Notes: generated by a model not told the origin, from the sequence alone. A DNA stretch of 63,248 bases from an uncultured virus (IMG/VR IMGVR_UViG_3300034684_000231) (IMGVR_UViG_3300034684_000231); one strand, 5' to 3'. Positions 1 through 28,075 are shown, counted from the first letter of the stretch. Made by a program: numbers and translations.

Positions 1-1338
1 TGCTATTTTTGTAATTAACTTATCTACATCAGGCATTTTTCCAGTTTCCACCATTTCTTGCTTAGCAGATATTAGAGTTTCCTATACAGCAGCAGCGGAT
101 TCTGCAATCTTTTTAAATGGTCTTGGTAATTTTGGTTTGTTCTTTAATAGCGCAGATACAAAGCTTTTGTATGGCTACACAAAAGGAGAAGTAGTATTTT
201 CAATATTCAGTTCTTTGCTTGCAAATCTTTCAAATAGCGAACTTAATATTTGAGATTCATCGATGAATTTGTTGACATCAAACAACGACATTAATGCCTC
301 TTTAGAATATGTATCTCCGTAAAAAGCTGTGAATATATACATGAATTTGTGCAAATCTTTTATGTATTCTTTTAAGTATTCATTAGCTTCTAATCCTTCG
401 TTTATATTGTCTGCGATAGTATCAACTCCGTGGAGTATTAAACCTAAAATTGATACCATAATATAGGCAAATAACATTTGAACTAATCCTTCAAGCACAG
501 CACTCATTGGATCTGGGTTCTTTGTAATATTCCTAAAGAAATCCCCGGTTGCGTTCCATAAAACGTACATATTAGCATATGTGGCTTCTAAAACATCTAA
601 TGTCGTGACTGTATCATCAAGAAATTTATAAATTGACTCTTTGTTGTCCTTTAACATTTTAATCAGAGGAAGATTGTTATATTGACTTGTCCACGTATTG
701 ATTGTAGTTTCTACATAATCTTCAAATCGTTTATAACTTTCTTCGTTGGAATAATTATTAAAGATTTGAGAATAGTAATTCTTGTATGCAGTAATGTAAA
801 AGCCCCAAAAAGAAATATATTTAATTAAACAACAAGACGGATTTGAGAATATTACATCTAACAACGCATCAGCGGTTTTGTCTAAATTGTTAGCTAACCT
901 TTTCAGGCCTTCTTGTACCGCATTTTGTGCATCTGTTTTTAATTTGTTTACTACTGAATTTTCATTATCTGCAGATGTTGTTGATTTTTGTTGTGCTTCC
1001 GGACTAATAATTTCATATTTAGATATAGTATCTGTAAGTTCATTCACTAATACAACTTTGTCTTCGGTGTAATGAACTGCATATGCAAGATCTATAACAG
1101 AGCTTAAAGTGTTTTTGTGCTCTGACTCTAAAGACAACATCTAGTTATTTGCGCTGTTGATAATGTATCCTACAGCATTTAATACCTCTGGATATGCATA
1201 CTACACGTGAGGATCCATTATATCTGAAAATGCACTATATTTTGCAAACATGGATTGTCCACTGTTAATATAGAAAACTTTCTATTTGCCTTGCTTTTTA
1301 GCGATTTCTAAACATTGTTTAATGTCTCTTGAGGCCAT
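1..1338 (-). CDS. Late/structural hypothetical protein, TAG-recoded, runs off the window end
   Basis: ATG at 1338 after GGCGGTGA. The frame contains ORF 175..1140 and is interrupted only by TAG codons down to position 1. Confidence 0.75.
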
Positions 1339-1350
1339 TTAATCACCGCC

Positions 1351-2505
1351 TTATTTAAGAATGTTGCCAAGTGTTCGTTTGATGTCTGTTTCAGAATAAT
1401 ATTTTCTGCCATATCTGTTATATCCAAGCTATACAACAGCAAGCATCTTACGTTGTGTAATTGACAATTTGTTACTTGATACAGTCTTTTTGCCACTCAT
1501 TACTTGATCAAGAAAATAAGGAGTTGAATCTGTTCCTAGTGTTAGGCCCTTTGGAATCCTAAAGAATGAACACATTAATTCATATTCCCTTACAGCAAAG
1601 AACCATACTATATGTTCCCATACTGTAATGAGTGGTATCCACTTGAATGGATACCAACTAAAGTTAAATCCCCAAAACGAAAAACTAAATCCTATATTCC
1701 TAATTTTGCCTAATATCCAGTTCATAATTTGTTCAAACGGCAATATAGTCCATGAACCAAAGATCCTAATGATATCAAGTTTTGCTTCAAAGTTCATTAA
1801 TAATTTCCAAAATAATATTTGGAACCAATCAACATTGAATACACAATCTAGAGATGGAGCTTCAACCGGCTTTACATTTGCAAGTTTTACGCCGGTTGAC
1901 TTTTCCTATACGCGAATCTATTTTAATCCTTGTTTAACGCTCTTAGTATTTCCAGCATGTCTAGTTATATCTTTTTTAAATTGTCTAAATGTACCGTTAT
2001 ATTCACGGTACTAATTAATTACATCAGACGTGGTTACGTCTGGTTGTTCTTCAGCTAAATTTAAATTTGTTGCGAGCCAAACGCCATCTTTATTTTTTAC
2101 CCACGCCTATGTACCATCTGTGGACGGGAATGCTAAGCCGAACTGAGTTGGAATAGGTTTAAGCTCAAATCCGCTTAGCACCTATTCTCGGGGTGGAAGT
2201 TGAGATTTGTAAACATCTATGGCATACATTACATCTTTTGCCTTCACATACGGATCGGTATCATCGTCGCCTATGATTTCTCTAAATTGAAGCAATCTTT
2301 CTTTTAAGTTTACATCAACATTTGCATCTGTTATTGGTTTGTCTTTAACAGATTCAATCTATGCTTTCTAATATTCTTTTAATTTATTCATGTCATATTC
2401 TAATTGCAAGTCTTCTAATGTTTTCTATTGCCGTTTAGTTTCGTGTTTCTGAATAGTTTGTTGCTCAAAAGTCTATTGCCGTGATTTTAATTTGATAAAT
2501 TTCAT
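1351..2505 (-). CDS. Hypothetical late protein, 384 aa with TAG read-through
   Basis: ATG at 2505 after AGGTGA; several in-frame TAGs; includes ORF 1429..1797; ends TAA at 1351. Confidence 0.75.
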
Positions 2506-2511
2506 TCATAA

Positions 2512-4230
2512 TCACCTGCCCCAGCGGTAAAGTTTGTTAATAAGTTGATGTCTGTTAATACTACTATTTCCATTTACACCTCTAATGGTGTTAGATGTAA
2601 CAGGAGCTAACACGTCATTATTAGGATTCTATACTATGCCAATGGAATTAACTTTCGGCTATGCAAGCTCTTCTTTGATAAGATACATGCCAAATAAAGC
2701 AAGCATCATCTATTCAAGAGTGTGTACATTGCCCTTGGAGTATTTAACGCTTCCGTTTTCAAGTACTTTTTCAACCACATAAGAACGCATCTGTCCTATA
2801 AGTTTGCTTTTAATATCTTCTGATTTAGGAAGTATAAGCCTACCGTTTTCAAGCATACGTTTAGCGTTTGAAACCATAAAGTCTTTTGCAGGCACTTTTT
2901 GATATGTGCCTAAAATTGGATCGAATACTTCTATCGTGGAGCCAAAATGAATAGTTTCTAACGTGTTTAGAAATGCTTCGTTGTTGTTTTGTACTCCCCA
3001 ATGTCTAAGGGCTTGGATCTGCGTCATACCAAAACCTTCGTCCATGACTATCTTTCTTGGTTTGTATAATTCATAAAGCTCTATAATTTTATTTACCTAA
3101 ACTATTTGAGTAAACTCAGATGGAGGAACTATTACTATATTCGATATTCTGTGTTTGTTGTGATGTGGTTCATAACGAACTATTACTATGTGAACCCCCT
3201 ATATAGATTCATTCCAGTCTATACCAAATGTGTAAATGCTAGGCGGAGGTGGCATATGATCAAATTCATAATCTTCTAGTGCCATGTCTATTTGCTCGTT
3301 TGGAAACACACCAGATTCTTGCAGCGTAAATTCTGCGAGAACTTCTCTTTCATACTGTTCTTTTGACATATTACGCTTAAATTCTTCGTCTGTTTCTGGA
3401 TCGTATGTTTCTAAGTCGTGATATCTTCTATGCATTTCTGCATACTAAGGATCGTGACACCATTGATAGAAGTAGCTCCTGTGTCCAGATGGAGTTGAAG
3501 ACTAAATGAGTTGCGTATCACTTGAAGTAGCAATCAATGGGTAAATGGCCGCAAACTAATTTTCTGATATAAAGTCCATCTCATCAAGAATCAAAAGATC
3601 TGCAGACTGAGACCTAACACTAGTTCCATCTTTGTCACCTGTTGTAATACCTCTAATAGTAGACCCGTTTGTAAATTGAAATTCCATATTAGGGCTTTTC
3701 TTGTACAGAGTACCATCGTTTGAACCCCGTTTGACAACAGAATGGATTAATATGTCACTGTTGATAATCATTTCATTCATTTTGTCGAACAGTTCTTTAA
3801 CTTGCGATTCACGTGGTGCTACAACTCTTATCCTTGCTTTTGCATGTACGAACTAATACCACAAAGCATACATGGCCATAGCGTGTGATTTACCAGCACG
3901 CCTCTATATTCTTAATACTTTTCTTGGTGACGTACACGAAAGAAATTCTTTCTGGAATTGACGAGGGTTTATCTTTAATATGTATTTAACAAAGAAATAT
4001 GGATACTGCTATGCAAGTTTAATGATATCGTCTGGTTTCTTTGGTTCAATATCAAATAAACCAGCTGGTATAGGATTACATTTAACTTTCCAGTTTAATT
4101 GTTTGCCTAATACGTGATTTACAACGCAGTTTACACACGCGGTATCAGGTTCATAGTCTATATCTAGTACACGTTTTGCAAACTTAACCTATTTATCATA
4201 CGATTCAAATTTGTCAACCCATTTAACCAT
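2512..4230 (-). CDS. terL: Terminase large subunit, 572 aa with TAG read-through
   Basis: One frame joins ORFs 3556..3780, 3199..3435 and 2710..3045. Motifs: PRQFQ, Walker A VLRI*RRAGKS, VVAPRESQ, Walker B LLILDEMD, coupling LI*SSTPSG, REVLAEF, nuclease FGIDWN. SD GGAGGG; TGA stop. Confidence 0.92.
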
Positions 4231-4258
4231 GTAATATTTCCCTCCTTGTTTCTATTTT

Positions 4259-4268
4259 GTTAATTAAC
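4259..4268. promoter_or_regulatory. GTTAATTAAC palindrome, candidate late promoter element
   Basis: Lies between the divergent terL and 4296 genes; the same motif recurs before other TAG-containing operons. Confidence 0.45.
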
Positions 4269-4295
4269 ACACGAAGTTTGAGGAGGTGTATATAA

Positions 4296-4874
4296 ATGCT
4301 GCCAGAAAGAGCAAGGGAAGCACAAAGATAGAGCTTGCCTGAACGAGTTGTAAAAAAGCTTGGTAGAAATGTTTTAGCGGAACTTGAAGATCACGAAGAA
4401 TTTGATAAAGGCCAACTTTAGACTCTTGCGCTTGTATGTAAGGGTAAAGACAAATGTCCATACGGCACAGATTGTCCTGTATCAAAACCGCCAGTTAGCG
4501 AGCGTTGTCCTATGGAAATTTACTATTAGGAGAAGTGGTTTGCCGAATACTGCGAGTCTTACAACATTGATCCTGTTGACAAATCGCAGGCTTCTCTTGT
4601 TGTAAGTTTGATATCAGTTGAAATTCAGCTTATGAGATAGCAGTCTATTATTGCAAAAGAAGGATTTGAGCAAATGGTTGTAACTGAATCAGAAGATGGA
4701 AGGAAAAAGTATGATAAGAAGCTTCACAATGTGCTTCAGCTTATTGATCAATTGGAAAAGCGTAAGGCTACAATAATTAAAGAGATACGAAACTCTGTTT
4801 CAACAAAACAAACAAATTAGATAGTCGGAGATATAGCACAAATACTTTCAATGGCTAAAAAATCCGGGGAGTAA
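4296..4874 (+). CDS. Cys-cluster protein, 192 aa with 5 TAGs; possible terminase small subunit
   Basis: SD GGAGG, ATG at 4296, TAA at 4874. Contains CKGKDKCPYGTDCP..ERCPME then a helical region; divergent from terL. Function inferred from position only. Confidence 0.6.
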
Positions 4875-4889
4875 TTCCCCGAATTATTT

Positions 4890-7800
4890 TTATAGCCATT
4901 TTGTTGCTCTTTCTTTTAACATCTGAAGTTCATCAAATAATTCGTCATGTCTGTTTCCTCTTACCGACATTATCTCTGCCATTGTATATCCATATGTTCC
5001 GTATTTTGTTATAATAGCTCTCCTTTGTTGAAATACTTCTGGGCCTATTAAGATGTATGGTAATAAGTTAATCATGTCACCGTCGTCGTCTCCAGCAATC
5101 TATTCTGCTACATGCTTTGGCACATCTATTGTATTATGTCTAGAAAAACCTACTATTCTAATGTGTGGTAAGTGTCCTATAATTGGATGCCTTTGCATGT
5201 AACCCCACATTTCTCCATATTTTGTAGCAAAATCAAATGCTTTGTATGGCGGCTCTAACACACGAAGTCCTCTGTTTAATTCTTCAATTGCTAGTCCGCC
5301 AGCACGTTCTGAGTATTGTAGAAAACCTCGATACTTGTCTATTAACTGCATTATCTATCTTTTCTGGAACGCTCGTGCGTTTTTATATTTTTGAATTTTT
5401 AGTATAGACAAATCTTCTAAGATAGGTACATTCTACTAAACAAGCTCGTATATTTCTCGCTCGTTTGCATATTTGCCCTATTCTGGATTATAGTAAATTA
5501 CATAATCTTTTAACTTATTATTCCAGTCTATAATTAGCGCGCTTCTAGACCATCTTTCAAAGAGGTTGTTCACTTTCATTTCTTTTTGTCCACTAACATA
5601 CTATTCGATTTCTGATATTTCGCTTGCAGGTAAATGTGATTTTAATTCGTCAAGAGTAATAACGTTACTTTTAACCTAAGAAGCTATGAGCTGTTGTAAC
5701 TATCGTTTCGGCATTCTTGTGCCACCTAAATCTTCTCTTGCTGTTGCATGCAAACCGCTAATGCCGATACCGTGCCTTTTCGAAAGTGTGCGTGCAAACG
5801 CTCTTGTCTGTATGTTGCCAAGTGTCATCATTCTACTGGAATAGAATTTAAACGACTGCATTGCGCGCTATGCATCACCACGCGCAACGTTTTGTAAGAG
5901 AGAATGAATTCCCTAGAACATATTCATGAACGTTTCTGCCTCAAGTGATAAGTGTAGTTGTGCGCCCGTGTTGTTAAACAACCTTGGAACATACATTTTA
6001 GCCATTTGAATGCCCGCGTCCCCAGCAGAAAGTGTAATTATATTACCTTGTTCTTTTGCTATCTGCGTTAATACTTTTGTCATTCTATATGTGCTCCATT
6101 TGTTAAGACCAATTTGGCCTGCCTAACCTGTAAGTGTTTCAAAGTATTGTGTTGCAACCGCTGGAATTAATATTTCTTCACCTGCAAATTGCTATAACCT
6201 TTTTGCTTGAGATTCAGTAATTGAGAATACTATGTTTCCCGTATCTAACTGAGTTCTTGGGTTTGTAAGTATGTCAGATAATACATCTAACAGATCCTAT
6301 GTTCTTTGAAGTCTGGCATCTTGTATTCTTGCAGATCTAAACTATTGTGCCATTTGTCTTAATCTTACTACGTTGTCTCGCACTACTTCTTGAGATTTAA
6401 TTGAACTAAATACATTTACAAATGGCTGTAATCCTTGCAAAAGCCCTATATTTCGCTATGAATGTATGCCTGCTCCTTTATTAATCTATTTTCTTGCGGC
6501 ATAATTTGGTTTAACATAACCTTTTTCTATCAAAGCCTATATTTGACCTGCCTATGCACCTTCTGATAGAGAGGTGGTAGTATTAGTAAGCATTATCGTC
6601 TTTTCAATATCATTGTCACTTGCGTCTGAACTTAACAATAAACTAAGCAAACCTGTTTGTTTGAATAAAGCAAGCTGTGGCAAAACCTGTGCAGATTGGT
6701 TTGAAATTTCAGTCCAATATGCTTGGTGGCTCTTCCCTGTATAGGCATATACTTTGTGAAAAATCAAAGGCATTGTAATATTTGTTCTTGCCCATTTGTC
6801 TCCTTCTTTTATATAAACAGTGCCTTTCATTTTGTTCAAGAATACATCTGACATTTTCTCTGTTACATTTTTTGTGAATTCATTCCACGCAACTGGTTTT
6901 GTAACGTCTATACCTTCAGCTATTTCAGGCAAGAGTTTGTTGAACATATCCTCGCCGTAGATATATTTATAAGCTCTGAGAGAACCTTGTAAAAATTCTG
7001 CTATTTTGTTCTTACGTTTTCCTTGAGTGTTTATGAATGCACCAACTGGAATTAATTGTCCGTTGATTTCGACAGCAATTTCTCTGTCAAAACGGAATGT
7101 TACCATACCTTTTGATCTTGCAATACCAGTTATTTTCAACTGTTCTGGTATATCTGCAAATGTAACTTTACCAAATTTATCTCTTGTCTAAATTTTAAGA
7201 GATTCAGCCAATTGTTTCTACATAAAATATGCGTCTCCAACCATTGTTAAATCAGTACCAAGCACCGAGCTAAAGAAGGATATGTTTTCTTTGTCTACAA
7301 CACCCGTTGGCAATAGAAAACCTGGCATTTCTGTTGTTTCAAGAGTTTCTTCATATACACCAGGCATTTTTACTTTTAAAAGCTATGCGGCCCTTTTTTC
7401 GTTGAGTTGATACACATAATCTACTAACTCTGAAGTTTTTCTGTATGTGTGATCGATTACAAGATCCGGTGCTTTTGCACCGTATGTATTGATAACACGG
7501 ACTGCGTCAGTCTATGCGGCCACTGGGTTAAACATTTCTTGAATAGGCGTTACAGCATGTCCGTACGGCTTTAATGCAACTGTTGAACCTACTGTGTTTG
7601 GCGACGAAATAGAAATAGCATCTGTTAAACGGTGAGGAACAATTGATAGTAATACGCCTTTGTAGTTAAATTGCTGAATGCCAAGTAAGTACTCAGGAAG
7701 CTGTTCTAACTCAAAAGTTGATTTGTACTATAAGTGCGAGTAATATAACTCTTTTGTGCGTTTAAGCATTCTGTTGTATATCCATTCATACACGTTTGAT

Positions 7801-10800
7801 TCTGTAGGTGTGCTTCCTATTATTGATTTCAATCTTTGAAATTGTGAGTTACTTAATTTTCCAAGACGTTGAGCAAAGAATTCTTTAAACACGTCTTCTG
7901 TCTATTCTTTTAGATTTATTTTTTTTGCGTTTAAGAAGTTAGTTAACACGTCTTGATTCATTACATCGTGTAAAACAAAGTATAATTCTGGGTCAATTTC
8001 TTGTGCATTTCTATGCGAAAGAAACATTGCTCTTAATAAGTCAATTGATTGGAATGTTCTTCCTGTTTGGGTGTAACTGTACATTCTATTAAAGAGCATA
8101 TTTATTAAATCTCTTCTTGCTTCGTACTTAATTCCTGTTTTTGCGGTTGTGTACATCATTACTGGTAAACCTAAATTACTTGGTTTATACATCATTTCTG
8201 CATATTGTGGCGCTAAAACTCCAAGCCATGTTTTGATAGCCTACATAGCAGCTTCAGGTTGATCAAATACAGTTTCAAATGCATAGCGCGCTTGTGTTTC
8301 TGTATAAGAAAATGTTTCCCCGCTTCCAGGAGTTACAATCAAACCTCCCGATTTGCTTTCGTCAAATGAGTATATAATACCAGTTTGGTATACTTTTATA
8401 CCTTCTCCTTGCCTCATTGCATCTTCTGACATTTCTTCGAAAAATTCATCTTCTTCAAGTCCCAAGTCTTGAGCTTCTATCCTACCTTCCGCGACATTTA
8501 AACTTGTTTGTTTGTACTTTAACACCCCTTCCGCTGGCAAACCCTATGTTTCAACATATTGAAATTGTTTTTGCATAACAGGAGGAACTACCTGCGATAA
8601 ATTCATGTCAGGTGTAAGAATTCCACCCTATATTAAAGAGCGTATTTTTTGATATGCCCCGCCTTTGAGCTATTCTTCAAAATATCTTGTGGTCCTCTAC
8701 ATTCTTGTAATAGCTTGTTTTCTCGGTTCACGTATAAATCTGTATGTAGCTAAGTTTGTAAGAGATGAAATTTGTATATACGGGAACATTGTTGCTTCTG
8801 ACATTGATTTCATCTTTCTTTTAACAAGATACTGTAACTAATAATCGCTTGCATAGTTGCCTTTTATAAAATCGTCCACAACATCTTTATATGTGTCAAT
8901 GGTCAAGTTTGCCGCCATGCCATAACTAGTGTCTTGCTACGCCTTGTACTGAATCATATCTGCTAGCTAACCAAATCTAAGCTATTGTCTGTCTATATAG
9001 CGAAGCGACGATTTTTGCAAGATATCTTGGAAAGATGCAAACGTTTTTGCTTTGCTAATTGTTTTTGCAAACGTTTTGTTTTCCATCGTTTCTTGAACTA
9101 TTGCTTTCAATGTATTTTCGTCAACATATTTGTATTTCGCTCTCAATTTAAGTGTGATATATTCTGGCGTCTACATAGGTTTATCTTGTCCAGGTAAAAT
9201 AAGCTTTGGTTTTTCAACCTGTTGCTATAATTGCTGCTCTGATTCTATTGGTAATATTATTTTAGGTTTTTGCGTACTAGCTTTTGATGGTTTTGCTTTC
9301 TTGATGTTTTTTAATTCTTGTTGAACGTCGGCTACAATATTCTGTACTAATTTCATCGAACGATAATCAATGCTTGACGGTTCTATACCAAGTTGTTCCT
9401 ACAGCACATCAATAAATTGTCTTTTTTGTAATGAAGCCCAGCGTTGATACGCAATATCATCTTCCTATAAATCTGAAACTTGTTGTGCAAAATTCATATA
9501 GCGTTGAAACAATACATCTAAGTTTTGTGAAATTGCTTGTTGCCCACCGAGTGCTCTTTCAAAACCAGTTTGGAATAGTTCTGTAATACCAGAAGCAATA
9601 TACTATCTTCTCATTAATTGTTCTCCTGATGAGCCAAGAGACAAGGTTTGCCCAACATTGATGTATTTTGTTAATGTGTCGTATGCTATGAGTTCTTTAA
9701 TACTTCGTTGAATTGATTGGTTTGTGACAATTGGTTGTATATCCTCTCTCATTGATTCGTATAGAAATTTAGCAACGTTTTCTATGTTACTTACATATTT
9801 AGAGCGTAAGTCTTTAAAGAACTAATCAGCACTTGTGGTCGATTTTACACCAGTAATGAATTCCTCAGTAAAACCAAATCTATCTAATTGATCCTATTTG
9901 CGTTTAAGCAAATTTAATATTTCGCCAGTTTTAAACTGGCTTAAATCACCAGAATATAGCGCATTGTAAATAGAAGTCAATATGTTGGTTGGTTCTTGAT
10001 CAAATGGAGTATTTTGAGCAAGCGAATTAACAAGAGACTATATGATAACTTTTGTGTTAGATTTGTCAACTGTTTTCTGCGCGTCTGCTTGAAGAACAAG
10101 CTAAATATTAATAGCCTATTCTTGTTCGTATCTTCTTAACTATTCAGCTACTGATAAAGGATTATTTAAATCAGCATCTTTAAACATAGCAGACAATTCA
10201 GATTGAAAAGATGGTCCTGTTCCGGCAGGAGATTTATCTTTAACTGAAATGCCAAATATGTTAGCAAGTTGTTGCTATAACTGATCTATAGATTTTCTAC
10301 TTACAGAAGTTACAGCATATTGTTCTTGTTTGGTTAACATTTGCGTAAGCTGTTCCTATGTATCAGCAACAAATGTTCGTAATGTACTTAATAAATCTAT
10401 AGAATCAGTCATATTATTTGCTAATATTTGCTAATCATGCATTTTTGCACTGCCAACAAGCAAGCTTGCTGTATTTCTTAACTAATGAGCTAATTGAGGT
10501 GATATAGGAGCACCAGCAGGCGTGATTGATGTAGCGGCTTCTTCAAACTATTGCATTACTTTATAATAATTAAACCCTTCTATATCAAACTACACATTTT
10601 TTGCTTTTTCAAGAGCCTATTTAAACGCATAAGAGCTTAGTATGTTTTCTGGCGCTATTGATAATTGCCTTAGCCTGTTCACAAATTCATCCGTTGACAT
10701 TGAAGTTGTTAAAAATGTTTTGAATGAACTACCAAGACTTATTGAACGTATAACAAAATTTGTCAAATCAGACAAGCTTTTATTAGGATCAAGCAAAGTG

Positions 10801-11633
10801 TCAACAACTATACCAGTAACACTTTTACCCTTTAAACCTATAGTTGCTGTAAAGACATCTGCAATAGGGGCATAACCTTTTACATTCCGATTAAATTTCT
10901 CCTATTTCTTTATGAATGTTTCTAGTCCTTGTTGAGAGAATATATCTTGCATTGCAAGATCTGGGTTGTGCCTATAAAACTGTGCAATAGACTTTAATGT
11001 ATCTTGATGTTGGCCAACCCATTTTTCTACAGCTCCTGTATACTTTGTGTACTATTCACTACTTTTATCAAGAAATCTTGAGCCAAAAGTCAAAAGTCTT
11101 GATTTCAGTTCTTCCGGGATTTTATCTATATCAGCGCCTGTACGGCCATATAACGTATTAAAAAACAAAAACAAATCATTGAACTACAACAGCTTATTTG
11201 TGTCTTCGGCTGAACTAATTGAACCTAACATTTGCGCGTTAAAACTTCCCATTAACTATTCATAGGAAGTAATTGCGTCTGTTATGCCTTCTGTCGTTAT
11301 TCCAGCAGGTTTAAATACATCTTTGTATAACCGTTTAAATGGCTCAATGTTCTTTTTTGCATCTATAACGAATGAATGTATGTTGCTAATTGTTTGTAGC
11401 AACTTAGTTTGTTTTGCTTTGTCAGGTGTAATATCTGTAATGACTTGTGGTAATTGTGTTTTAAGTTGCCAAATTAAATTGTTGACTTGATCAAGATCGC
11501 CTTGTTGTGCATATGTATCTATCTTTTTGACAACAGCTCGTAAATCTTCAGGTAAGCTAAGCTTCTTTTCAGGTATTTCTAATATTTGTCCTAAAAGAGC
11601 CTAAAAAGAAGGCGCTCCTGCAAACAGCTTCAT
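4890..11633 (-). CDS. Giant (~2247 aa) virion-type two-barrel RNA polymerase polyprotein, TAG-recoded
   Basis: SD AAGGAGG, ATG at 11633. Track ORFs at 8241, 7902, 6552, 5100 and 4890 share one frame and the upstream four end in TAG. C-terminal QRHPIIG...VAE*IAGDDDGDMI catalytic motif. The frame was spot-checked, not read exhaustively. Confidence 0.82.
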
Positions 11634-11650
11634 TATTTTTGCCTCCTTTA

Positions 11651-12391
11651 TCATCCGTATATTGCAATATATGGATTTGTGCCAAACACACCCTAGTCAT
11701 TTAATATTTGCCTTGTTACCATTGCGTTTTGCAAGCTACGCATAATGATTTGCTCTTCCTATTTAGAGAATCGTTGTGAGTCTTTATACTTTGGATTAAT
11801 GCTACCAGTAATTCCCTACAAGCGTCTGTAATATCTAAGTCTTTCAGCACGCTTTTTTGATTCTATTGCCTATGTTCCAATAGCTTCTGCAATTGTTAAA
11901 CCTATACTCCACATTTGTGTTCTTTGCCACATTGACATGCCAGCAAGGATTTTTCCAGACTTGCGTGTCAATGAAACTATTTTTTTTAATTCTGCTTCTG
12001 CTACATCATCTAATGTTTCTTTAATAGTGCCCTTTAAAATTTTTTGAGGTACTTTTAAAGCTTTGTGTACATCAGTAGGATATCCGAGCCATCCCATATC
12101 TAATTGTGTTATTTTTGGTAAATGTTTCTGTAATATTGGGCGTATATGAGTGAATTTGTTTTTAAACTAAGGAGAAATGAGTTTCTCATATATAACTTTG
12201 TTTAATTTTCCAAGTCCTTTTCCAAATTGAATGTTTGGTTGTAATGGCTAAAGAGCCATCATGCTCAGAAATGATTCAACCTCATACTACCCTATCATTG
12301 ACAGTGATAGTTTAAACATCAACGAACCAAAATTTACATTACTAACCGGCTGTACTTCTTGTGTGTTTAAGTCATATATGAAGCTTGGCAT
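11651..12391 (-). CDS. Hypothetical virion/ejection-type protein, 246 aa, TAG-recoded
   Basis: SD AAGGAGG, ATG at 12391, includes ORF 11870..12097, ends TGA TAA; directly upstream of the giant RNAP gene. Confidence 0.7.
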
Positions 12392-12404
12392 TTAGGATGC
12401 CTCC

Positions 12405-13235
12405 TTATCCAAAGAATCTTTGGTGAGTTTTTGCTCCTGTTAATATAGATCTATAATCTATGTTTGATCCAGATGACATAGAAGAAAAAACACCTGCAAA
12501 AAATCCGAGCGTTGCGTATGATGTTAGCTAAGTAAGTCCTAGCTATTTTGACATACGTTTTGCTTTGAATATTTTAATTGCTTCATCCATGTTGGTTACA
12601 CCATATTTCTTGTACATCCTTGGTAATTTGTTTAGATCATTGCCAAAGATATGTGTCTTTAAGTTATTAAGTTTTTTGGCCACATCATCAGACTTGTGTA
12701 TATTACCAAATAATCGCTCGAGTATTTCTTGTTGTAGTTCGTCGGTAAGTTCTACTTTTTTGTTTACAACATCAAGCCAATTAATTTCTGTGCCATTTGA
12801 TAATTTAAGAGATACCTTACCAGCTGCAAAAGATTTAGCTATTTGAAAGTCTTGCTGTTGTGCATATCCTTCTATTATTTTGCGTGCATCTTCTAAGTAT
12901 TTGCTCATTGTTTTAGTAGCTGTTTTCTAATCTAAATCGTTTAGATCGACTACTTTCTTATATACATTTTCACTAATCAAGCCATATTTTTTCGCCAAGA
13001 ACAGTTTGTATACACTGTCTGTATATGCATCAAATTGCTTGCTTGCAGTCTCTATATTTTTTAATTTCTCTAGTTGCATTACCTTTTTAACGTATGCATT
13101 TTCGTATACCCATCCACCTGCAAACCTATATCCAAAAAGAAACGTGTTGCTTATTGCTCGACCAAGAACATTAGTTTTGTGTTTCGCATGATTATTAAGC
13201 TTTGTTTGTGCAGATGTGCCTGCTGCTGTTGCCAT
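12405..13235 (-). CDS. Hypothetical virion/ejection-type protein, 276 aa, C-terminal hydrophobic helix, TAG-recoded
   Basis: ORFs 12927..13235 and 12543..12908 share a frame across TAG; continues *LGLT*LTSYATLGFFAGVFSS to TAA at 12405. Confidence 0.75.
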
Positions 13236-13261
13236 TTATATACACCCCCCTAATATCTCCT

Positions 13262-13275
13262 CAGTTAATTAACTG
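13262..13275. promoter_or_regulatory. CAGTTAATTAACTG palindrome, candidate late promoter element
   Basis: Perfect 14-bp palindrome between divergent TAG-containing genes. Confidence 0.45.
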
Positions 13276-13327
13276 CGGCTGTTCTAAAATATAAACAAAA
13301 AAAGAAAATATGAAGGAGGATGGTATT

Positions 13328-13909
13328 ATGTTGATGGGATATTATACAACTTTACCAGGCTATGAATGTATATTGACTAACTACAAACAACACAGAATTA
13401 TAGGGATACCATATGAGTTTTATGAGCCTAATGGCATTGTGTTCATAGATTTTAACGACGCAGACAAAGAATGTACATTGTCATGGTATGAAATTTTACA
13501 TGCTTCAAATTTCGACAGCGTGTATTAGGAAGATGACGAAGAATTGAAAGACATAATGGAGAGTGCAATTTCAGACAGAAACAAAAGAGTGATGAAAGAT
13601 ATAGTTGCATTTTATATTGAACCAGTAGATTCTGACGTTAAAGCAATTGAATATATGTTGGAACATAGCAGATATTATGAACTGAGGTATTCTGAAATCC
13701 CATCTATGGTTCTTGATAGTTTTGTCCCGTTGTTTATAGACGATAACGATAAAATTCTTGCTATAGGTTTTGGAACCACTGCTATACATACGACAGATAC
13801 GACAAAAAATATGTTGGAAATGGTAGCGTTTAACGATCGTGTAATCATGAAAGAAGTGCTAATTATTCCTATTAAGAAATCAGCTATTGCGCTAAACCAT
13901 AACATATAA
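13328..13909 (+). CDS. Hypothetical protein, 193 aa, one internal TAG
   Basis: SD AGGAGG, ATG at 13328. ORFs 13310..13528 and 13544..13909 are in frame across the TAG at 13526. Confidence 0.65.
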
Positions 13910-13912
13910 GAA

Positions 13913-13937
13913 ACCGGGCATTTAAGCCCGGTTTTTT
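13913..13937. terminator. Bidirectional intrinsic terminator
   Basis: AACCGGGC-atttaa-GCCCGGTT hairpin with A/T tails between convergent genes. Confidence 0.7.
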
Positions 13938-15115
13938 CACAGTCTCTTAATCTACTCTTCCGCAAGTTTTGATCTAAACGTTTTGTTCAGTACTATGTTA
14001 GTGGATACATCAGATTCATACATCTTGTCGGCGACATAGATAAGTCCGTTTGTCTCGTTTTCTCTGTAATAAGTGTCAATTTGTTCAATGTCGCCAAGCA
14101 AGATAATCTTAGAACCGTAATCAATACGTGTGATAAATGTTTTTAATTCATGCGGATGAGTATTTTGTGCTTCGTCTATAATCACAATACTATTCTTAAT
14201 TGAACGTCCCCTGATGTTCTAGAATGATTGAATTTCAAGCTGCCACTCTTTGCCTTCCAACTAATTTTCGATCATTTGTTTGCCTTCATCACCAAGCAAG
14301 TATTCTATGTTGTCTATAATACCAGAAAACTGTTTGATTGTTTTCTCTTCAAGTGTGCCTGGTAAGTAACCATATCTATCTTTGCCACCGAGTTGTACAG
14401 GAGGTACAGCTATTATGAGCTTTTCATACGAGCCTGATTGAACAAGATGGATAGCACTCTAAATTGAAAGGAATGTTTTACCAGATCCTGCGGGGCCTAT
14501 ACCAACAACCATAGGAAGGCGTATATCGAAGATCTAATCAAGGAGCATAGTTTGTTCCATACAAAGAGGTTCTATCTTTTTGTCCCTTATTTTAAAGGAA
14601 ATCCTATCTATATATTCTATCTTGCCATTTACATACTTTCCTATTCGCGAGTTAATCCCGTCTGTAACTTTAACGTATGTAAACTCAGGCATATCAAGAT
14701 TGATTTCCATGCGATCTCCGCTGAGATCTTTATCTACTTGTACTGTTTTAATTGCTTCAAGGATATTTTCGGGACGTGTTTCTGTAAGAAGCTCAACCTT
14801 AACGTCGGCAACTTTCTATCTCATCTATAACTAAGTGTCAGATGTGTACAGTGTACCTTTATATATTTTTGCTACTTCTAATACAGATAGATCAGTTGTT
14901 TCGGCCATATCGTCAAATATAATTATTGCTCGTTTGTCAATCAGATCCATAATATCTCTTATCTACTTGATCTACCTATGTTTGGTTCTGTCTACTTCTT
15001 TCAACCTATCAAGCTCTGACAAAACGGAGAAAGTCGTGGCAATCTGTGTTTCGGAAGGAACGTTTTTGTGTGCTTGCAAAATGAAAGCTGATGTATCCAT
15101 TACCAAATACGACAT
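13937..15115 (-). CDS. phoH: PIN-PhoH (PhoH2-type) protein, 392 aa, TAG-recoded
   Basis: N-terminal PIN motif YLVMDTSAF; GIGPAGSGKTFLSI*SAI; GYLPGTLEEK; SF*NIRGRS; IIDEAQN; LLGDIEQID; RSKLAEE*IKRL then TGA. Confidence 0.92.
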
Positions 15116-15226
15116 ACAAACACCTCCATCGGCAAAGTCATTAGTAAATTAACTCCCCCCTGTTAATTAAATGGTAGATTGGTTAATTACCATCTTTACA
15201 CCTTCAAGAAAGGAGGGTAGATACCC

Positions 15227-15673: not shown

Positions 15674-15749
15674 GCAGGTGTATCTCAATTGGTAGAGCAG
15701 GTGATTTGTAATCATCAGGTTGGAGGGTCGAGTCCTCTAGCCTGCTCCA
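15674..15749 (+). tRNA. tRNA-Thr(TGT), degenerate
   Basis: Cloverleaf with GGTGA-TTTGTAA-TCATC anticodon arm and 3' CCA. Defects: G7:A66 mismatch, D-stem mismatch, T-loop GTCGA instead of TTCGA. Confidence 0.8.
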
Positions 15750-15750: not shown

Positions 15751-15826
15751 GGGGGCGTAGCTCAATTGGGAGAGCTCCGGTCTCTAAAATCGGTGGTTGC
15801 GGGTTCGAGTCCCGTCGCCTCCACCA
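15751..15826 (+). tRNA. Amber-decoding tRNA (anticodon CTA) with tRNA-Ala identity elements
   Basis: Acceptor stem GGGGGCG/CGCCTCC gives G1:C72, G2:C71, G3:U70; discriminator A73; encoded CCA. Anticodon arm CCGGT-CTCTAAA-ATCGG with CTA at 15784-15786; canonical D and T arms. Confidence 0.95.
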
Positions 15827-16091
15827 GATCGGCAAGGTCATACAGTTTTTTATACATCTTTATTACCTCAACACATTCTAGACTTGTTCATTTAATCACC
15901 TTCTACCCGGGTAATTATACCCGGGTATTTTGTTAATTTAGATTAGACTGTGCCTTTTGCGGCCCAATATAATTTGTCTTGTCCGCGGTGACCAAGAGAG
16001 GCTTTAAGCCTCTCTTTTTTTGTTGCACAGTTATAATCTTGCTATATATGTACAATTTGCAATGAAATAACAAACAAGGAGGGGGTTTTGC

Positions 16092-23612: not shown

Positions 23613-23641
23613 GTTTCAGCACAATTTAGGAGGTGTATATA

Positions 23642-24478
23642 GTGTCTGCTAAAGTTATTAGTATTTATAATCTTAAAGGCGGAACAGGTAAAACAACATT
23701 AACTTTGGCACTTGGTTATTTTTCACCTGCAGTAAGACAAAATCTTAGAATTCTACTAATAGACTTAGACCAACAAGCAAATCTTACGGCATCGGCGTTG
23801 CCAAGCAATGTATTTCAAGAAATGTTTGAAAGCAAAAGGACAGTTGCACGCTTATTTGACGAAAAAGTAACTTTCGACCCACATGAGTTAGTATATCACA
23901 CGTTTCTAGAAACCACAGATATTGTTCCATCTGCGCTTGAATTGGCAAGCAGAGAATTTGAAGCATTTAGACTAATCGACGGCAAGCTACGAATTAAATT
24001 ATTTGTCGATCAATTAAAAGATGAATATGACCTAATAGTTATAGATACCCCACCAGCTTGGAACGTGTTCAGTTGGAATGCTCTCTATGCGTCCGATTAT
24101 TTAATTATGCCAACAGCTCCTAATTTCTGGAGCATTGAAGGAACTAGAGTTGTAATGGAATTGCTTGAACCTTTGCTAACATCTCCTAATTATAATCTTC
24201 AATTACTTGGTTTTGTAGTAAATTTTGTTGATAAGCGTTACAAAGCCCATAAATCATATATAGAATACCTACAACACACATATGGTTCAAGCATATTGGG
24301 TGTATTAGGCAAAAGAACTTTATATGAAAATCTATCGCTTATCAAAGATCACTTAGAAATATTTAAACTATTAAACGATGCAGCTGCCAAAGATTTGTTT
24401 AAAGTACTAGAAAACATCTTTACATTGATTTTTGATGAAGATAAATCAAAACAACAAAAAGGAGTGTTAAACAGATGA
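23642..24478 (+). CDS. parA: ParA/Soj-family partition ATPase
   Basis: Deviant Walker A NLKGGTGKTT, LLIDLDQQANLT, YDLIVIDTPP, NALYASDY. Confidence 0.95.
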   Translation: MSAKVISIYNLKGGTGKTTLTLALGYFSPAVRQNLRILLIDLDQQANLTASALPSNVFQEMFESKRTVARLFDEKVTFDPHELVYHTFLETTDIVPSALELASREFEAFRLIDGKLRIKLFVDQLKDEYDLIVIDTPPAWNVFSWNALYASDYLIMPTAPNFWSIEGTRVVMELLEPLLTSPNYNLQLLGFVVNFVDKRYKAHKSYIEYLQHTYGSSILGVLGKRTLYENLSLIKDHLEIFKLLNDAAAKDLFKVLENIFTLIFDEDKSKQQKGVLNR

Positions 24479-26838: not shown

Positions 26839-27390
26839 TTATCGAACAAGTAAAGTAAATATTTTATCAATTATCAAATATACCAATCCACCGCCACCAA
26901 TTATTGATATCCAAAAACGTGTTTTGTCTAATGTCTGTTTCTCTTGTTTGATCTTATAAGTCTCCATCATTGCATTGTATCCATCTTTCATGTTTTGAAT
27001 TAGCTATTCGACTTGCTTTTTGTTCATTTCCAAGGCCTATTTCAATGTCTCATCAACCATTTGTTGATAATCCCTTTTTAACATGTTGATAAAGTCATGT
27101 CTCCATCCATTATCCAAGTGTGACTGCAAATCTTCAATTCTATTAAACAGCTTCTTTATATCTTGGGATAATTCGTGCATTCTATTTGTTAGAGCTTGTA
27201 TTTTCATTTCCTGTTTGTAATTCTTATCATCTACTTCGCTTATTAACTATTGCAAAGCATTGATTGCATCTTCTGTTACTTGATAGTACTTACTAAATTG
27301 TTCTTGTAGCTTTTCTACCGTAACACGAAGCGTTTCTATATGTTTCTATTGTTCTTCTGCATCTGTAAGTTTAACTTCGTGTGTATCCAT
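26839..27390 (-). CDS. Coiled-coil protein with C-terminal TM helix (XhlA/holin-like architecture), 183 aa, 4 TAGs
   Basis: SD AGGAGG, ATG at 27390; ends FWISIIGGGGLVYLIIDKIFTLLVR then TAA. Missing from the ORF track. Confidence 0.7.
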
Positions 27391-27403
27391 TGCCAATCCT
27401 CCT

Positions 27404-28075
27404 TTATATCAATTTAGCTTTTGGATGTTCTTTCAAATCTTGTGGAGAAATAAATTCAAATGGTTGATCAAACTCAATTCCACCTTCGTGAAGCATTCTC
27501 TAAACAAGTTCGGAACACATCATGTTTTTTGGATTATTATATGCAAGTAAATCTTGCACTTTTTCTTCGAGATCTTCATAACCTACAAATTTACCAAATG
27601 CACCAACAATTTCAGCTATTGAGTTTAAGCCTAAAGAAGCGTAGTCATATGGTAGATTCCAATACTTATCTACAGCTTTAAGCATTCGTTCTGCATCTAC
27701 GCCTTCAAATCTTAGCACATCAACCATCTAATAGTGTGAAGGAGGATACTTTAGCAATTTTACTCCTGACAGCCATGCTGCTAATACCCATCCTTTACCC
27801 AAATACAATTCTGCGTGTATATATTCCTGCTGGGCCAAGCGCACTACCTGTTTTGCAACTGCAGAGGAAACAAATTCTGCCGTGGGAGGAACAAGAGAAA
27901 GAATTGCATTCTATATAGTTTCTCCGAGGATCTTTTTCATGTAATTAATCATTCCTTCTAAAAACAGCTCTGCTTTAAACTCTATCTAGTTCTTGAGGGC
28001 TTTGTAAGGTTCGGAATAATAATAGGTTGGCAAAAGTAAAACATCACCAGGTTGAAGTTTGTCAATTTTTACCAT
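27404..28075 (-). CDS. Permuted papain-like NlpC/P60 (YiiX/YaeF-type) hydrolase, 223 aa, TAG-recoded
   Basis: LQPGDVLL, YIHAELYLG, LPYDY, MMCSELV*RM, ISPQDL, with His before Cys. Confidence 0.85.

What the first reader, a model, noticed from the sequence alone, without database searches (positions are those of the whole stretch)
15751..15826. CUA-anticodon tRNA with G3:U70 and A73 alanyl identity on a tRNA-Trp-like body
Seen: acceptor pairs G1:C72, G2:C71, G3:U70, discriminator A73, anticodon CTA. The arm CCGGT-CTCTAAA-ATCGG closely resembles bacterial tRNA-Trp (CCGGTCTCCAAAACCGG). Known: AlaRS recognises G3:U70 and A73 and ignores the anticodon, so host AlaRS could charge it without a phage synthetase. 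Inference: a Trp-derived tRNA (CCA to CTA) gained Ala identity and is the decoder for the TAG=Ala code.
Basis: partly seen in the sequence, partly recalled or inferred. Interest (0 to 1): 0.93.

Follow-up and report, generated by a model that had tools for sequence, protein, structure and literature searches.

The report
Phage amber tRNA built to carry alanine
A phage carries a transfer RNA that reads the stop codon TAG but has every mark that the alanine-charging enzyme looks for, and the phage's late genes use TAG where related proteins have alanine, which points to a phage genetic code (TAG = alanine) that has not been described.

Summary
Observation confirmed. Window 15751-15826 (+) is a canonical 76-nt tRNA with anticodon CUA, G1:C72, G2:C71, G3:U70, G4:C69, A73, G20 and an encoded CCA. 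That is the complete bacterial alanine identity set.

Its D and anticodon arms are of the bacterial tRNA-Trp type. All 120 of 120 sampled genomic matches to that body were tRNA-Trp(CCA). Against their consensus the tRNA differs only at positions 1, 35, 40, 70, 72 and 73; position 20 (G) is also a base none of them has.

The window is a phage whose minus-strand late block (1-15115) is full of in-frame TAG. These TAGs align with alanine, not glutamine, in standard-code homologues:
- Terminase: Ala is the top residue at 5 of 8 usable TAG columns, p=2e-5.
- PhoH: 3 of 10, p=0.02.

Three other phage lineages carry G3:U70/A73 CUA tRNAs and are also TAG-recoded. In two of them TAG again aligns with Ala, including the cultured Aeromonas T5-like phage AhSzw-1 (8 of 15 columns, p=1e-5).

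Best reading (0.8): host AlaRS charges this tRNA and TAG is read as Ala in late genes. Charging itself is inferred, not shown. Public databases translate these proteins with Gln at TAG.

The parts
15751..15826 (+). Amber-suppressor tRNA(CUA) with the alanine identity set. G3 is at 15753, G20 at 15770, the anticodon CTA at 15784-15786, U70 at 15820, A73 at 15823 and the encoded CCA at 15824-15826.
   Evidence: ARAGORN; Rfam RF00005 at 66.4 bits; sequence read directly; identity set taken from the PMC9976931 table.
15674..15749 (+). Companion tRNA, anticodon UGU (Thr-like), ending one base before the suppressor. It has mismatches at 7:66 and 10:25, and a G at T-loop position 54 (window 15727).
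   Evidence: Rfam RF00005 at 46.7 bits; ARAGORN misses it. It is 85.7% identical to the annotated tRNA-Thr of phage Phass-1. At 15727 all 4 laid runs read T.
15904..16016 (+). Two terminator-like hairpins with T runs (15904-15927 and 15994-16016) that close the small tRNA unit before the first early ORF at 16092.
   Evidence: Consensus scan: 2 found against 0.9 expected. This is a pattern match only.
13937..15115 (-). PIN/PhoH-like ATPase gene with 10 in-frame TAG. It is the nearest recoded gene to the tRNA.
   Evidence: Pfam PF02562, 3.4e-41. TAG columns compared with 108 homologues: Ala is the top residue at 3 of 10 (positions 100, 219, 388), Gln at none.
2512..4230 (-). Terminase large subunit gene with 12 in-frame TAG.
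   Evidence: Pfam PF03237 and PHROG 2. Ala is the top residue at 5 of 8 usable TAG columns against 13 DNA-verified standard-code relatives, and at 6 of 12 against 28 low-Gln database relatives.
4890..11654 (-). 2254-aa late ORF with 56 in-frame TAG. It has a DDDGD motif near the C-terminus and matches no family.
   Evidence: ORF lists; no Pfam or PHROG hit; only two database relatives.
1..15115 (-). Late block read with TAG as a sense codon. Stop-to-stop ORF coverage is 0.35 under code 11 and 0.99 with TAG read as sense. The 6 complete minus-strand genes of this block checked for their stop codon, plus 2 recoded minus-strand genes at 26839-28075, all end in TAA or TGA.
26839..28075 (-). Small second recoded block of two minus-strand ORFs with 4 TAG each. 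One is a putative cell-wall hydrolase-like protein.

Best explanation
The tRNA is a phage-encoded amber suppressor that the host's alanyl-tRNA synthetase charges with alanine. AlaRS reads the acceptor end (G3:U70, A73, G2:C71, G4:C69) and G20, and does not read the anticodon.

The tRNA is transcribed from its own short unit, together with a tRNA-Thr, between the divergent early (+) and late (-) gene blocks. Once it is present, the roughly 110 in-frame TAG codons of the late, packaging and lysis genes are read as Ala, so these genes can be translated only then.

The molecule looks like a bacterial tRNA-Trp whose anticodon became CUA and whose acceptor end was rebuilt (A1:U72 to G1:C72, C70 to U, G73 to A, position 20 to G). 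These changes remove the Trp and Gln determinants and install the Ala ones.

Shown here: the tRNA and its identity nucleotides; TAG recoding of the late genes; TAG aligning with Ala rather than Gln; and the same link in two other phage lineages.

Inferred: aminoacylation by host AlaRS, the timing of expression, and descent from tRNA-Trp.
For: tRNA and identity set:
- establish the tRNA and its nucleotides. The bacterial Ala set A73, G2-C71, G3.U70, G4-C69, G20 comes from the table in PMC9976931 (passages).

Recoding:
- ORF coverage of window 1-15200 is 0.35 under code 11 and 0.99 with TAG as sense. The block holds 12, 56 and 10 TAG in the terminase, the 2254-aa ORF and PhoH.

TAG = Ala in the window:
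- Terminase against 13 relatives whose DNA has no in-frame TAG: Ala is the top residue at 5 of 8 usable TAG columns, against 25 of 427 columns overall (p=2.3e-5). Mean Ala frequency is 0.47 against 0.06; Gln is 0.02.
- Terminase against 28 low-Gln database relatives: 6 of 12, p=1e-5.
- PhoH against 108 homologues: 3 of 10, p=0.02.
- Internal control: the window's own CAA/CAG columns give Gln 0.32 and its GCN columns give Ala 0.30 in the same alignment.
- At the window's TAG columns, 7 DNA-verified recoded relatives show A 24, TAG 18, S 7, Q 2. In reverse, where those relatives have TAG, the window has A 31, S 20, TAG 18, Q 4.
- In 12 Gln-rich database relatives, 'Q' falls on conserved-Ala columns 60 times and on conserved-Gln columns 57 times. 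In standard-code rows the figures are 138 on Gln, with Ala not among the eight commonest.

Trp-type body:
- 120 of 120 pattern matches are tRNA-Trp(CCA). All have A1:U72 and G73, and none has G20.
- Only positions 1, 35, 40, 70, 72 and 73 depart from the consensus (at 90% or more) of 82 distinct tRNA-Trp.

Independent lineages with G3:U70/A73 CUA tRNAs:
- Aeromonas phage AhSzw-1 terminase has 15 TAG, and Ala is the top residue at 8 of 15 columns against 6 T5-like phages, p=1.4e-5.
- IMG/VR phage G003 terminase has 25 TAG, and Ala is top at 11 of 24, p=3.6e-7. In its protease, 2 of 4 TAG sit at columns that are Ala in 83 and 93 of 101 homologues.
- G001 is also TAG-recoded.

Contrast:
- CUA tRNAs of phAss-1 and of L082/L083 have a U1 start, G73 and a Watson-Crick pair at 3:70 (G3:C70 in L082/L083, U3:A70 in phAss-1), not G:U. 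For phAss-1, TAG is reported at conserved Gln positions (PMC10607447, passage).
Against: - No aminoacylation or proteomic evidence exists. The identity rules come mostly from E. coli, and the host is unknown.
- U35 together with A73 can also attract LysRS, and U35 attracts GlnRS, so mixed charging is not excluded.
- Not all TAG columns are Ala. In PhoH, 7 of 10 align with H, S, N, R, L, Y or T.
- In the 2254-aa protein the only distant relative (38% identity) shows Q 25, S 6, E 4, L 3, A 3, R 3 and others at the 56 TAG columns, which does not single out Ala.
- One TAG-to-CAG difference (window 2427) is seen in a near-identical strain, out of 33 listed differences mapped.
- Ser is the second-best signal in several relatives, and one subgroup (L137-L142) gives no clear answer.
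- No relative of the window's own clade yielded a tRNA (0 tRNAs in 22 metagenome loci), so conservation of G3:U70 within the clade is untested.
- The minimum-free-energy fold is not the cloverleaf (z=-1.7).
- Only 63 kb of the genome is visible, so another TAG decoder or a phage synthetase could lie outside the window.
Confidence: 0.8

Rival explanations
1. An ordinary code-15 suppressor: the tRNA is charged with glutamine, as the classical tRNA-Trp amber suppressor is, and TAG means Gln, as the databases assume.
For: [quoted passage not shown]
- U35 is a GlnRS determinant.
- One TAG-to-CAG variant exists in a near-identical strain.
- The protein database translates the window's own proteins with Q at TAG.
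- The phage surveys read here report only TAG->Gln and TGA->Trp.
Against: - Gln frequency at TAG columns is 0.00-0.03, at or below background, in all three alignments, while Ala is 0.28-0.47.
- The GlnRS acceptor determinants are replaced: the 1-72 and 3-70 pairs and the discriminator are here G1:C72, G3:U70 and A73.
- 'Q' in recoded relatives sits on invariant Ala motifs, such as DEAQN written as DEQQN.
Confidence: 0.04
2. Ambiguous decoding: the tRNA is charged mainly with Ala but also appreciably with Lys or Gln. Alternatively, TAG is partly read as stop by RF1, so late proteins are statistical mixtures.
For: - U35 and A73 are part of the bacterial Lys identity set (table in PMC9976931).
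- Several TAG columns are not Ala in homologues.
- TAG still ends some early genes, three of them with a back-up stop 1-3 codons later.
Against: - Lys is rare at TAG columns: 2 of 116 residues in standard-code terminase rows.
- TAG sits at invariant Ala positions of catalytic motifs, where a mixture would be costly.
Confidence: 0.1
3. The tRNA is not the decoder. TAG is read by another tRNA outside the window, phage or host, and this gene is a bystander or a decayed copy.
For: - Only 63 kb of a genome of perhaps 90-160 kb is visible (contig lengths).
- The neighbouring tRNA-Thr carries defects.
Against: - It is the only CUA tRNA in the window, has no mispairs and scores 66 bits.
- No difference inside it is among the 40 of 189 differences listed for the near-identical phage contigs of 4 other studies.
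- Its predicted amino acid matches what the TAG columns show.
- The pairing of a G3:U70 CUA tRNA with TAG at Ala positions recurs in two other lineages.
Confidence: 0.05
4. A pyrrolysine tRNA, as ARAGORN labels it.
For: The ARAGORN label 'tRNA-Pyl', which is given for any CUA anticodon.
Against: - The cloverleaf is canonical, with an 8-nt D loop containing G18G19 and a 5-nt variable loop, and it matches RF00005 over the full model.
- No Pyl genes appear among the ORFs scanned.
- TAG columns are Ala.
Confidence: 0.005

Closest known systems
Sup-CTA tRNAs of TAG-recoded ('code 15') phages: crAss-like, Lak, phAss-1 (Borges preprint 10.1101/2021.08.26.457843; PMC9523058; PMC10607447)
   Same: A phage-encoded CUA tRNA. 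Late, structural and lysis genes carry in-frame TAG while early genes do not. No phage synthetase is evident, so a host enzyme is presumably used.
   Different: In those phages TAG is Gln. The CUA tRNAs of that kind fetched here (phAss-1, L082/L083) have U1, G73 and a Watson-Crick pair at 3:70. Here the acceptor end is G1:C72, G3:U70, A73, and TAG aligns with Ala. The Borges preprint states that only TAG->Gln and TGA->Trp were seen in phages that differ from their host (passage).
Laboratory amber suppressors made alanine-accepting by transplanting G3:U70 (Hou and Schimmel 1988 and McClain and Foss 1988, both recalled; summarised in PMC9976931)
   Same: An amber-anticodon tRNA of another family becomes an AlaRS substrate through G3:U70 (plus A73), because AlaRS ignores the anticodon.
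   Different: Those are engineered. This one is natural, sits in a phage, and is coupled to genome-wide use of TAG.
E. coli su+7, the amber suppressor derived from tRNA-Trp (recalled name; its charging with Gln is stated in PMC9976931)
   Same: A tRNA-Trp body with the anticodon changed from CCA to CUA.
   Different: su+7 keeps A1:U72, G3:C70 and G73 and inserts Gln. The phage tRNA has exactly these positions changed.
CUA tRNA of cultured Aeromonas T5-like phages (AhSzw-1, AhSzq-1, Akh-2, vB_AdhS_TS3; genus Shenzhenvirus)
   Same: It is 63/76 identical to the window tRNA, with G3:U70, A73, an encoded CCA and a G-containing D loop. The phage's late genes are TAG-recoded at Ala positions.
   Different: A different phage family and host. 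Its acceptor stem (GGGGATG/CATCTCC) equals that of phage tRNA-Ala rather than tRNA-Trp, and its anticodon stem differs. Records annotate it as tRNA-Pyl, TERM, OTHER or not at all.
UAG = Ala in Hydrodictyaceae (green-algal) mitochondria (PMC6821328, passages) and CUG = Ala in Pachysolen (NCBI table 26)
   Same: A codon captured for alanine, made possible by anticodon-blind AlaRS.
   Different: Those are organellar or nuclear codes of eukaryotes and apply to the whole genome. Here a virus imposes the reading on a standard-code bacterial host for part of its genes. No NCBI table reads TAG as Ala.

Membership tests
tRNA (Rfam RF00005) | Cloverleaf that matches the covariance model above the gathering score | tested here: met
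   66.4 bits against a gathering score of 29, model positions 1-71 of 71, no non-canonical pair flagged; ARAGORN also finds it.
AlaRS substrates (bacterial alanine identity set) | G3.U70 wobble pair | tested here: met
   G at 15753 and T at 15820, read from the sequence in the register of the Rfam alignment.
AlaRS substrates (bacterial alanine identity set) | A73, G2-C71, G4-C69 and G20 (table in PMC9976931) | tested here: met
   A at 15823; G2:C71 and G4:C69 in GGGGGCG/CGCCTCC; G at 15770.
AlaRS substrates (bacterial alanine identity set) | Alanine anticodon (NGC) | tested here: not met
   The anticodon is CUA. From recalled knowledge, AlaRS does not read the anticodon, so this does not bar charging.
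AlaRS substrates (bacterial alanine identity set) | Actual aminoacylation with alanine | not testable with these tools
   Indirect only: TAG columns are enriched for Ala.
Bacterial tRNA-Trp | Anticodon C34 C35 A36 | tested here: not met
   The anticodon is CUA, with U at position 35.
Bacterial tRNA-Trp | G73, A1-U72 and G3-C70 | tested here: not met
   The tRNA has A73, G1:C72 and G3:U70. All 82 distinct comparison tRNA-Trp have A1, T72 and G73, and 99% have C70.
Bacterial tRNA-Trp | Body: D arm, anticodon arm, A9, G2-C71, G4-C69, G5-C68 | tested here: met
   120 of 120 sampled genomic matches to the body pattern are tRNA-Trp(CCA). E. coli trpT is 61/76 identical, against 55/76 for the best tRNA-Ala in the sample.
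Code-15 phage suppressor system (TAG = Gln) | Phage-encoded CUA tRNA together with in-frame TAG in late genes | tested here: met
Code-15 phage suppressor system (TAG = Gln) | TAG aligns with Gln in standard-code homologues | tested here: not met
   Gln is the top residue at 0 of 8, 0 of 12 and 0 of 10 TAG columns; mean Gln frequency is 0.02, 0.03 and 0.00.
Code-15 phage suppressor system (TAG = Gln) | Gln acceptor determinants on the tRNA (weak 1-72 pair, G3-C70, G73) | tested here: not met
   The tRNA has G1:C72, G3:U70 and A73. The determinants are taken from PMC9976931.
tRNA-Pyl | Atypical Pyl cloverleaf (recalled: short D loop, 3-nt variable loop) and pyl genes nearby | tested here: not met
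   The cloverleaf is canonical, with an 8-nt D loop and a 5-nt variable loop. No Pyl-related family was found among the 46 ORFs scanned.

The most novel reading that the evidence does not exclude
A previously unrecognised phage genetic code, TAG = alanine, exists and is enacted by a class of phage amber-suppressor tRNAs that hijack host AlaRS through G3:U70 and A73.

It occurs in at least three, probably four, unrelated phage lineages:
- the window's clade, from oil-field, shale and wastewater samples;
- cultured Aeromonas T5-like phages;
- two IMG/VR lineages.

If so, an unknown share of phage proteins now stored as 'code 15' carry Gln where the virus makes Ala. It also means that tRNA acceptor-stem identity, not the anticodon, predicts what a recoded stop codon means.
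Probability: 0.75. Interest if true: 0.9.

Novelty: new variant of a known kind. Interest (0 to 1): 0.87.

Why it matters
Stop-codon recoding in phages is currently described as TAG->Gln or TGA->Trp, and gene callers and databases hard-wire Gln for TAG. The window's own proteins are stored with Q at every TAG.

If TAG = Ala here, several things follow:
- A new natural code variant is added. No NCBI table reads TAG as Ala.
- AlaRS, the one synthetase that ignores the anticodon, is shown to be exploitable by viruses for code change.
- Protein sequences, structure predictions and homology searches for these phage clades are systematically wrong at 2-4% of residues, often in catalytic motifs.
- The amino acid can be predicted from the suppressor's acceptor stem.

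Cultured Aeromonas phages show the same tRNA type and the same TAG-at-Ala pattern, so the claim is directly testable by virion proteomics.

A natural Ala-inserting amber suppressor on a Trp scaffold is also of interest for work on tRNA identity and suppressor design.

Tried and rejected
Searches for relatives and context that gave nothing useful:
- No whole genome is held for the window.
- A PhoH single-protein scan of IMG/VR found no relative. The PhoH-profile scan returned only distant standard-code phages.
- The window-specific tRNA patterns found no copy of this tRNA in IMG/VR.
- The terminase-profile scan of genome contigs found nothing.
- The records behind the metagenome loci are not held, so the tRNAs of the window's recoded relatives could not be reached. 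ARAGORN found 0 tRNAs in those 22 loci.
- Our earlier findings: nothing by place, sequence or words.

Tests that were uninformative:
- The 2254-aa protein has only one distant relative, which is not informative.
- Sequencing runs: no RNA holder is listed. The contigs laid are near-identical (about 99.5%), so they show neither covariation in the tRNA nor a TAG substitution spectrum. Only 40 of 189 differences were printed.
- The minimum-free-energy fold does not give the cloverleaf.
- No ribozyme or other RNA family lies next to the tRNAs. At E<=1 there are only weak hits far below the gathering scores.
- A planned negative control, running my column test on a Gln-type phage, was dropped. Pfam terminase and portal models found no match in phAss-1 or the L082 phage. 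I rely instead on the internal Gln-column control and on the published statement for phAss-1.
- G001 (the L148/L153 phage) is shown to be TAG-recoded, but the six ORFs scanned matched no Pfam family, so the meaning of its TAG was not tested.

Amino acids considered and rejected for TAG:
- Ser: the tRNA has no long variable arm.
- Gly: requires U73, C35 and C36, which are absent.
- Lys: K is rare at TAG columns.
- Pyl: see the membership test.

Literature: searches for a published phage TAG->Ala code found none in the held library. The supplementary Table S1 of PMC11210395, which lists the Demerecviridae genomes called table 15, was not opened.

Full report
THE OBJECT

Window 15751-15826 (+) is a tRNA. 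ARAGORN finds it with anticodon cta at position 34, and labels it tRNA-Pyl only because of that anticodon. Rfam RF00005 scores it 66.4 bits (E=3e-12) over the whole model with no mispair.

Read from the sequence, in linear numbering equal to standard numbering:
- Acceptor stem GGGGGCG/CGCCTCC, which gives G1:C72, G2:C71, G3:U70 (15753/15820) and G4:C69.
- Discriminator A73 (15823) and an encoded CCA.
- D loop AAUUGGGA, with G20 (15770).
- Anticodon loop CUCUAAA.
- A 5-nt variable loop and a canonical T loop.

One base upstream ends a second tRNA (15674-15749, UGU, Thr-like). Rfam scores it 46.7 bits and ARAGORN misses it. Two terminator-like hairpins follow the pair. No other RNA family lies near.

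CONTEXT

The window is a phage. It contains a terminase, a PIN/PhoH ATPase, ParA, RNase H, HNH nucleases, an anti-restriction protein, a repressor and a transglycosylase.
- Under code 11 the minus-strand block 1-15115 is shattered. Stop-to-stop ORF coverage is 0.35, and it rises to 0.99 when TAG is read through.
- TAG-sense ORFs include a 572-aa terminase (12 TAG), a 2254-aa protein (56 TAG) and PhoH (10 TAG).
- The eight complete recoded genes checked (six in the late block, two at 26839-28075) end in TAA or TGA. GCN-Ala makes up 6.0% of late-gene codons and TAG 2.2%.
- The plus-strand block from 16092 onward is largely standard. Seven of 46 ORFs of at least 100 aa end at TAG, and three of these have a back-up stop 1-3 codons later.
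- The tRNA pair sits in the gap between the two divergent blocks, on the early strand.

WHAT TAG MEANS

The protein database holds the window's own proteins with Q at every TAG (P0001, P0121, P0123). A Q in close database relatives is therefore uninformative, and I used homologues that are demonstrably or probably standard-code.

Terminase:
- Against 13 relatives whose DNA shows no in-frame TAG (IMG/VR and metagenome loci), Ala is the commonest residue at 5 of 8 usable TAG columns, against 25 of 427 columns overall (hypergeometric p=2.3e-5). Mean Ala frequency is 0.47 against 0.06 (permutation p=5e-5). Gln is 0.02.
- Against 28 database relatives with under 5% Gln, the figure is 6 of 12 (p=1e-5).

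PhoH:
- Against 108 homologues, 3 of 10 TAG columns are Ala-dominant (p=0.02): A in 66, 97 and 96 of 108. None is Gln.

Control:
- In the same terminase alignment the window's CAA/CAG columns give Gln 0.32 and its GCN columns give Ala 0.30. TAG columns therefore behave like Ala columns.

Recoded relatives with DNA in hand:
- 17 loci carry 9-23 in-frame TAG and no TAA or TGA in the terminase.
- At the window's TAG columns, seven representatives have A 24, TAG 18, S 7, Q 2.
- Where those representatives have TAG, the window has A 31, S 20, TAG 18, Q 4, although only 4.4% of its terminase is Ala.

Gln-rich database relatives:
- In 12 of them, 'Q' falls on conserved-Ala columns 60 times and on conserved-Gln columns 57 times. 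In standard-code rows the figures are 138 on Gln and 4 or fewer on Ala. In PhoH, for example, the invariant DEAQN motif is written DEQQN.

Results that do not point to Ala:
- Seven of the ten PhoH TAG columns align with other residues.
- The 2254-aa protein's one distant relative gives Q 25, S 6, E 4, L 3, A 3, R 3 and others at the 56 TAG columns.
- Ser is the second signal in several relatives, which fits the single-step path TCG-TAG and the exchangeability of Ala and Ser. The L137-L142 subgroup gives no clear answer.
- A near-identical strain has CAG in place of one TAG.

WHO WOULD CHARGE IT

According to the identity table of PMC9976931 (passages):
- Bacterial Ala identity is A73, G2-C71, G3.U70, G4-C69 and G20. 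All five are present.
- Bacterial Trp identity is G73, A1-U72, G2-C71, G3-C70, G4-C69, G5-C68, A9, C34, C35 and A36. Here G73, A1-U72, G3-C70 and C35 are all changed.
[quoted passage not shown] Only U35 remains.

That AlaRS ignores the anticodon, and that G3:U70 transplants confer Ala acceptance on amber suppressors, is established knowledge. I recalled it, and the review passages partly restate it. No synthetase gene was seen in the window. Charging by host AlaRS is therefore the inference that fits both the tRNA and the TAG columns; it was not tested.

ORIGIN OF THE BODY

- I searched a pattern made of the tRNA's D arm and anticodon arm, with the anticodon and four other positions left free. 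It matched about 6700 stretches in bacterial and archaeal genomes by estimate. All 120 of the 120 returned were tRNA-Trp(CCA) with A1:U72 and G73. Position 20 was T in 85, C in 32 and A in 3, never G.
- Against the consensus (at 90% or more) of the 82 distinct sequences, the phage tRNA differs only at positions 1, 35, 40, 70, 72 and 73. These are the anticodon, the wobble in the anticodon stem, and the acceptor-end identity positions.
- E. coli trpT is 61/76 identical. The best tRNA-Ala among 196 tRNAs from the loci fetched is 55/76.

Caveats:
- The comparison set was selected with a pattern taken from this tRNA. Outside the pattern, identity is 51-78%.
- The closest single sequence is the CUA tRNA of Aeromonas phages (63/76), whose acceptor stem equals that of phage tRNA-Ala.

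I put descent from tRNA-Trp at about 0.6.

THE SAME PAIRING ELSEWHERE

A generic 3'-half pattern (CUA loop ... U70 C71 C72 A73) found three further distinct G3:U70/A73 CUA tRNAs in IMG/VR: 4 ARAGORN-confirmed tRNAs among 46 pattern hits.

(a) Aeromonas phage AhSzw-1 and its kin (T5-like, cultured):
- RefSeq annotates the portal protein and the terminase only as fragments.
- With TAG read as sense, the terminase is a 430-aa ORF with 15 TAG.
- Against six standard-code T5-like terminases, Ala is the top residue at 8 of 15 TAG columns, against 41 of 430 overall (p=1.4e-5). Gln is top at 1.
- The Akh-2 paper does not mention stop codons or suppressors (term search of PMC7157608).
- Cook et al. note sporadic stop-codon repurposing in Demerecviridae (PMC11210395, passage); their Table S1 was not opened.

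(b) G003 (28 kb, HK97-type):
- The terminase has 25 TAG, and Ala is top at 11 of 24 usable columns (p=3.6e-7).
- In the prohead protease, 2 of 4 TAG sit at columns that are Ala in 83 and 93 of 101 homologues. The other two sit at Pro-dominant columns.

(c) G001 (103 kb):
- It is broadly TAG-recoded, for example a 2822-aa ORF with 58 TAG. The meaning of its TAG was not tested.

By contrast, the CUA tRNAs of phAss-1 and of L082/L083 have U1, G73 and a Watson-Crick pair at 3:70, and phAss-1 TAGs are reported at conserved Gln positions (PMC10607447).

DISTRIBUTION

- Near-identical copies (about 99.5%; one contig spans the whole 16.1 kb) occur in assemblies from shale-gas, crude-oil, oil-facility and wastewater studies.
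- None of the 40 of 189 differences listed falls inside the suppressor on the phage contigs.
- All four runs read T where the window has G at 15727. That restores T54 of the tRNA-Thr.

NOVELTY

- The phage surveys read here report TAG->Gln and TGA->Trp only (Borges preprint, passages; PMC11210395, passages; PMC10879173, term search without hits for alanine).
- Four full-text searches found no phage TAG->Ala report.
- No NCBI table reads TAG as Ala.
- UAG=Ala is known in Hydrodictyaceae mitochondria (PMC6821328, passages), and CUG=Ala in Pachysolen (table 26).

This is therefore a new variant of a known kind of system, phage stop-codon recoding through a suppressor tRNA, using a different amino acid and a different hijacked synthetase.

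VERDICT

- Confidence is 0.8 that the tRNA inserts Ala at TAG.
- The missing proof is biochemical, and it is within reach because cultured Aeromonas phages show the same features.

Noticed in passing
window 15674-15749 (+), position 15727: The companion tRNA-Thr(UGU) has G at T-loop position 54, a 7:66 G:A mismatch and a 10:25 mismatch, and ARAGORN misses it. All four other runs laid on the window read T at 15727, which restores the canonical TTCGAGT loop. The window's G may therefore be a strain variant or an assembly error.
   Followed up: partly
L312 (NC_047950.1 102000-108000), Aeromonas phage AhSzw-1: RefSeq annotates the portal protein as two short pieces and the terminase large subunit as a 207-nt fragment. 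With TAG read through, the terminase is a 430-aa ORF with 15 TAG, the small terminase has 6 TAG, and neighbouring ORFs have 4-13. A cultured T5-like phage is TAG-recoded without this being reflected in its record.
   Followed up: yes
P0001, P0121, P0123 (database copies of window proteins): The public protein collection stores the window's own late proteins with Q at every TAG (code 15). If TAG is Ala, these sequences are wrong at 2-4% of residues. Relatives show motifs such as DEQQN in place of DEAQN.
   Followed up: yes
window 34275-34910, 34879-36114, 62565-63089 (+): Three early-strand genes end in TAG and are followed by a TAA or TGA within 1-3 codons. These look like back-up stops that would limit read-through once the suppressor is expressed.
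   Followed up: partly
window 52148-53170 (+): An ORF matching PHROG 2825 ('polymerase', 5e-59) and a reverse-transcriptase PHROG (5e-14). It lies next to an HNH-type gene and an AAA ATPase, and could be a retroelement or a diversity-generating system.
   Followed up: no
window 23633-24478, 44905-45405, 55634-56263 (+): A ParA-like partition protein, an anti-restriction protein and a repressor-type regulator. These hint at a temperate or plasmid-like lifestyle.
   Followed up: no
L087/L159 (IMGVR_UViG_3300035698_001120), about 4001-4075 (-): A tRNA-like element with a CUCUAAA loop, acceptor GGATCAC/GTGATCC (A3:U70), A73 and CCA, but a degenerate D arm. ARAGORN does not call it. It lies about 450 nt from a phage tmRNA gene.
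   Followed up: no
L319-L324 (G001, IMGVR_UViG_3300045988_140357): A 103-kb phage with a G3:U70/A73 CUA tRNA is TAG-recoded over most of its length, for example a 2822-aa ORF with 58 TAG and a 2114-aa ORF with 16 TAG. None of the six ORFs scanned matched a Pfam family, so the meaning of its TAG was not tested.
   Followed up: partly
L137-L142 (metagenome relatives, GC about 30%): This terminase subgroup has 9-17 in-frame TAG, but its TAG columns show no clear amino acid (Ala 0.10-0.23; Asp and Pro next). It may place TAG at less conserved sites, or read it differently.
   Followed up: no
Read laying loose ends at window 15812 (runs X8, X9): High-depth contigs from other organisms in the same samples match the tRNA body and continue with an acceptor 3' strand and discriminator of the ordinary tRNA-Trp type (…GCCCCTGCCA). 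Bacteria with a tRNA-Trp close to the suppressor's scaffold therefore live in these communities.
   Followed up: no
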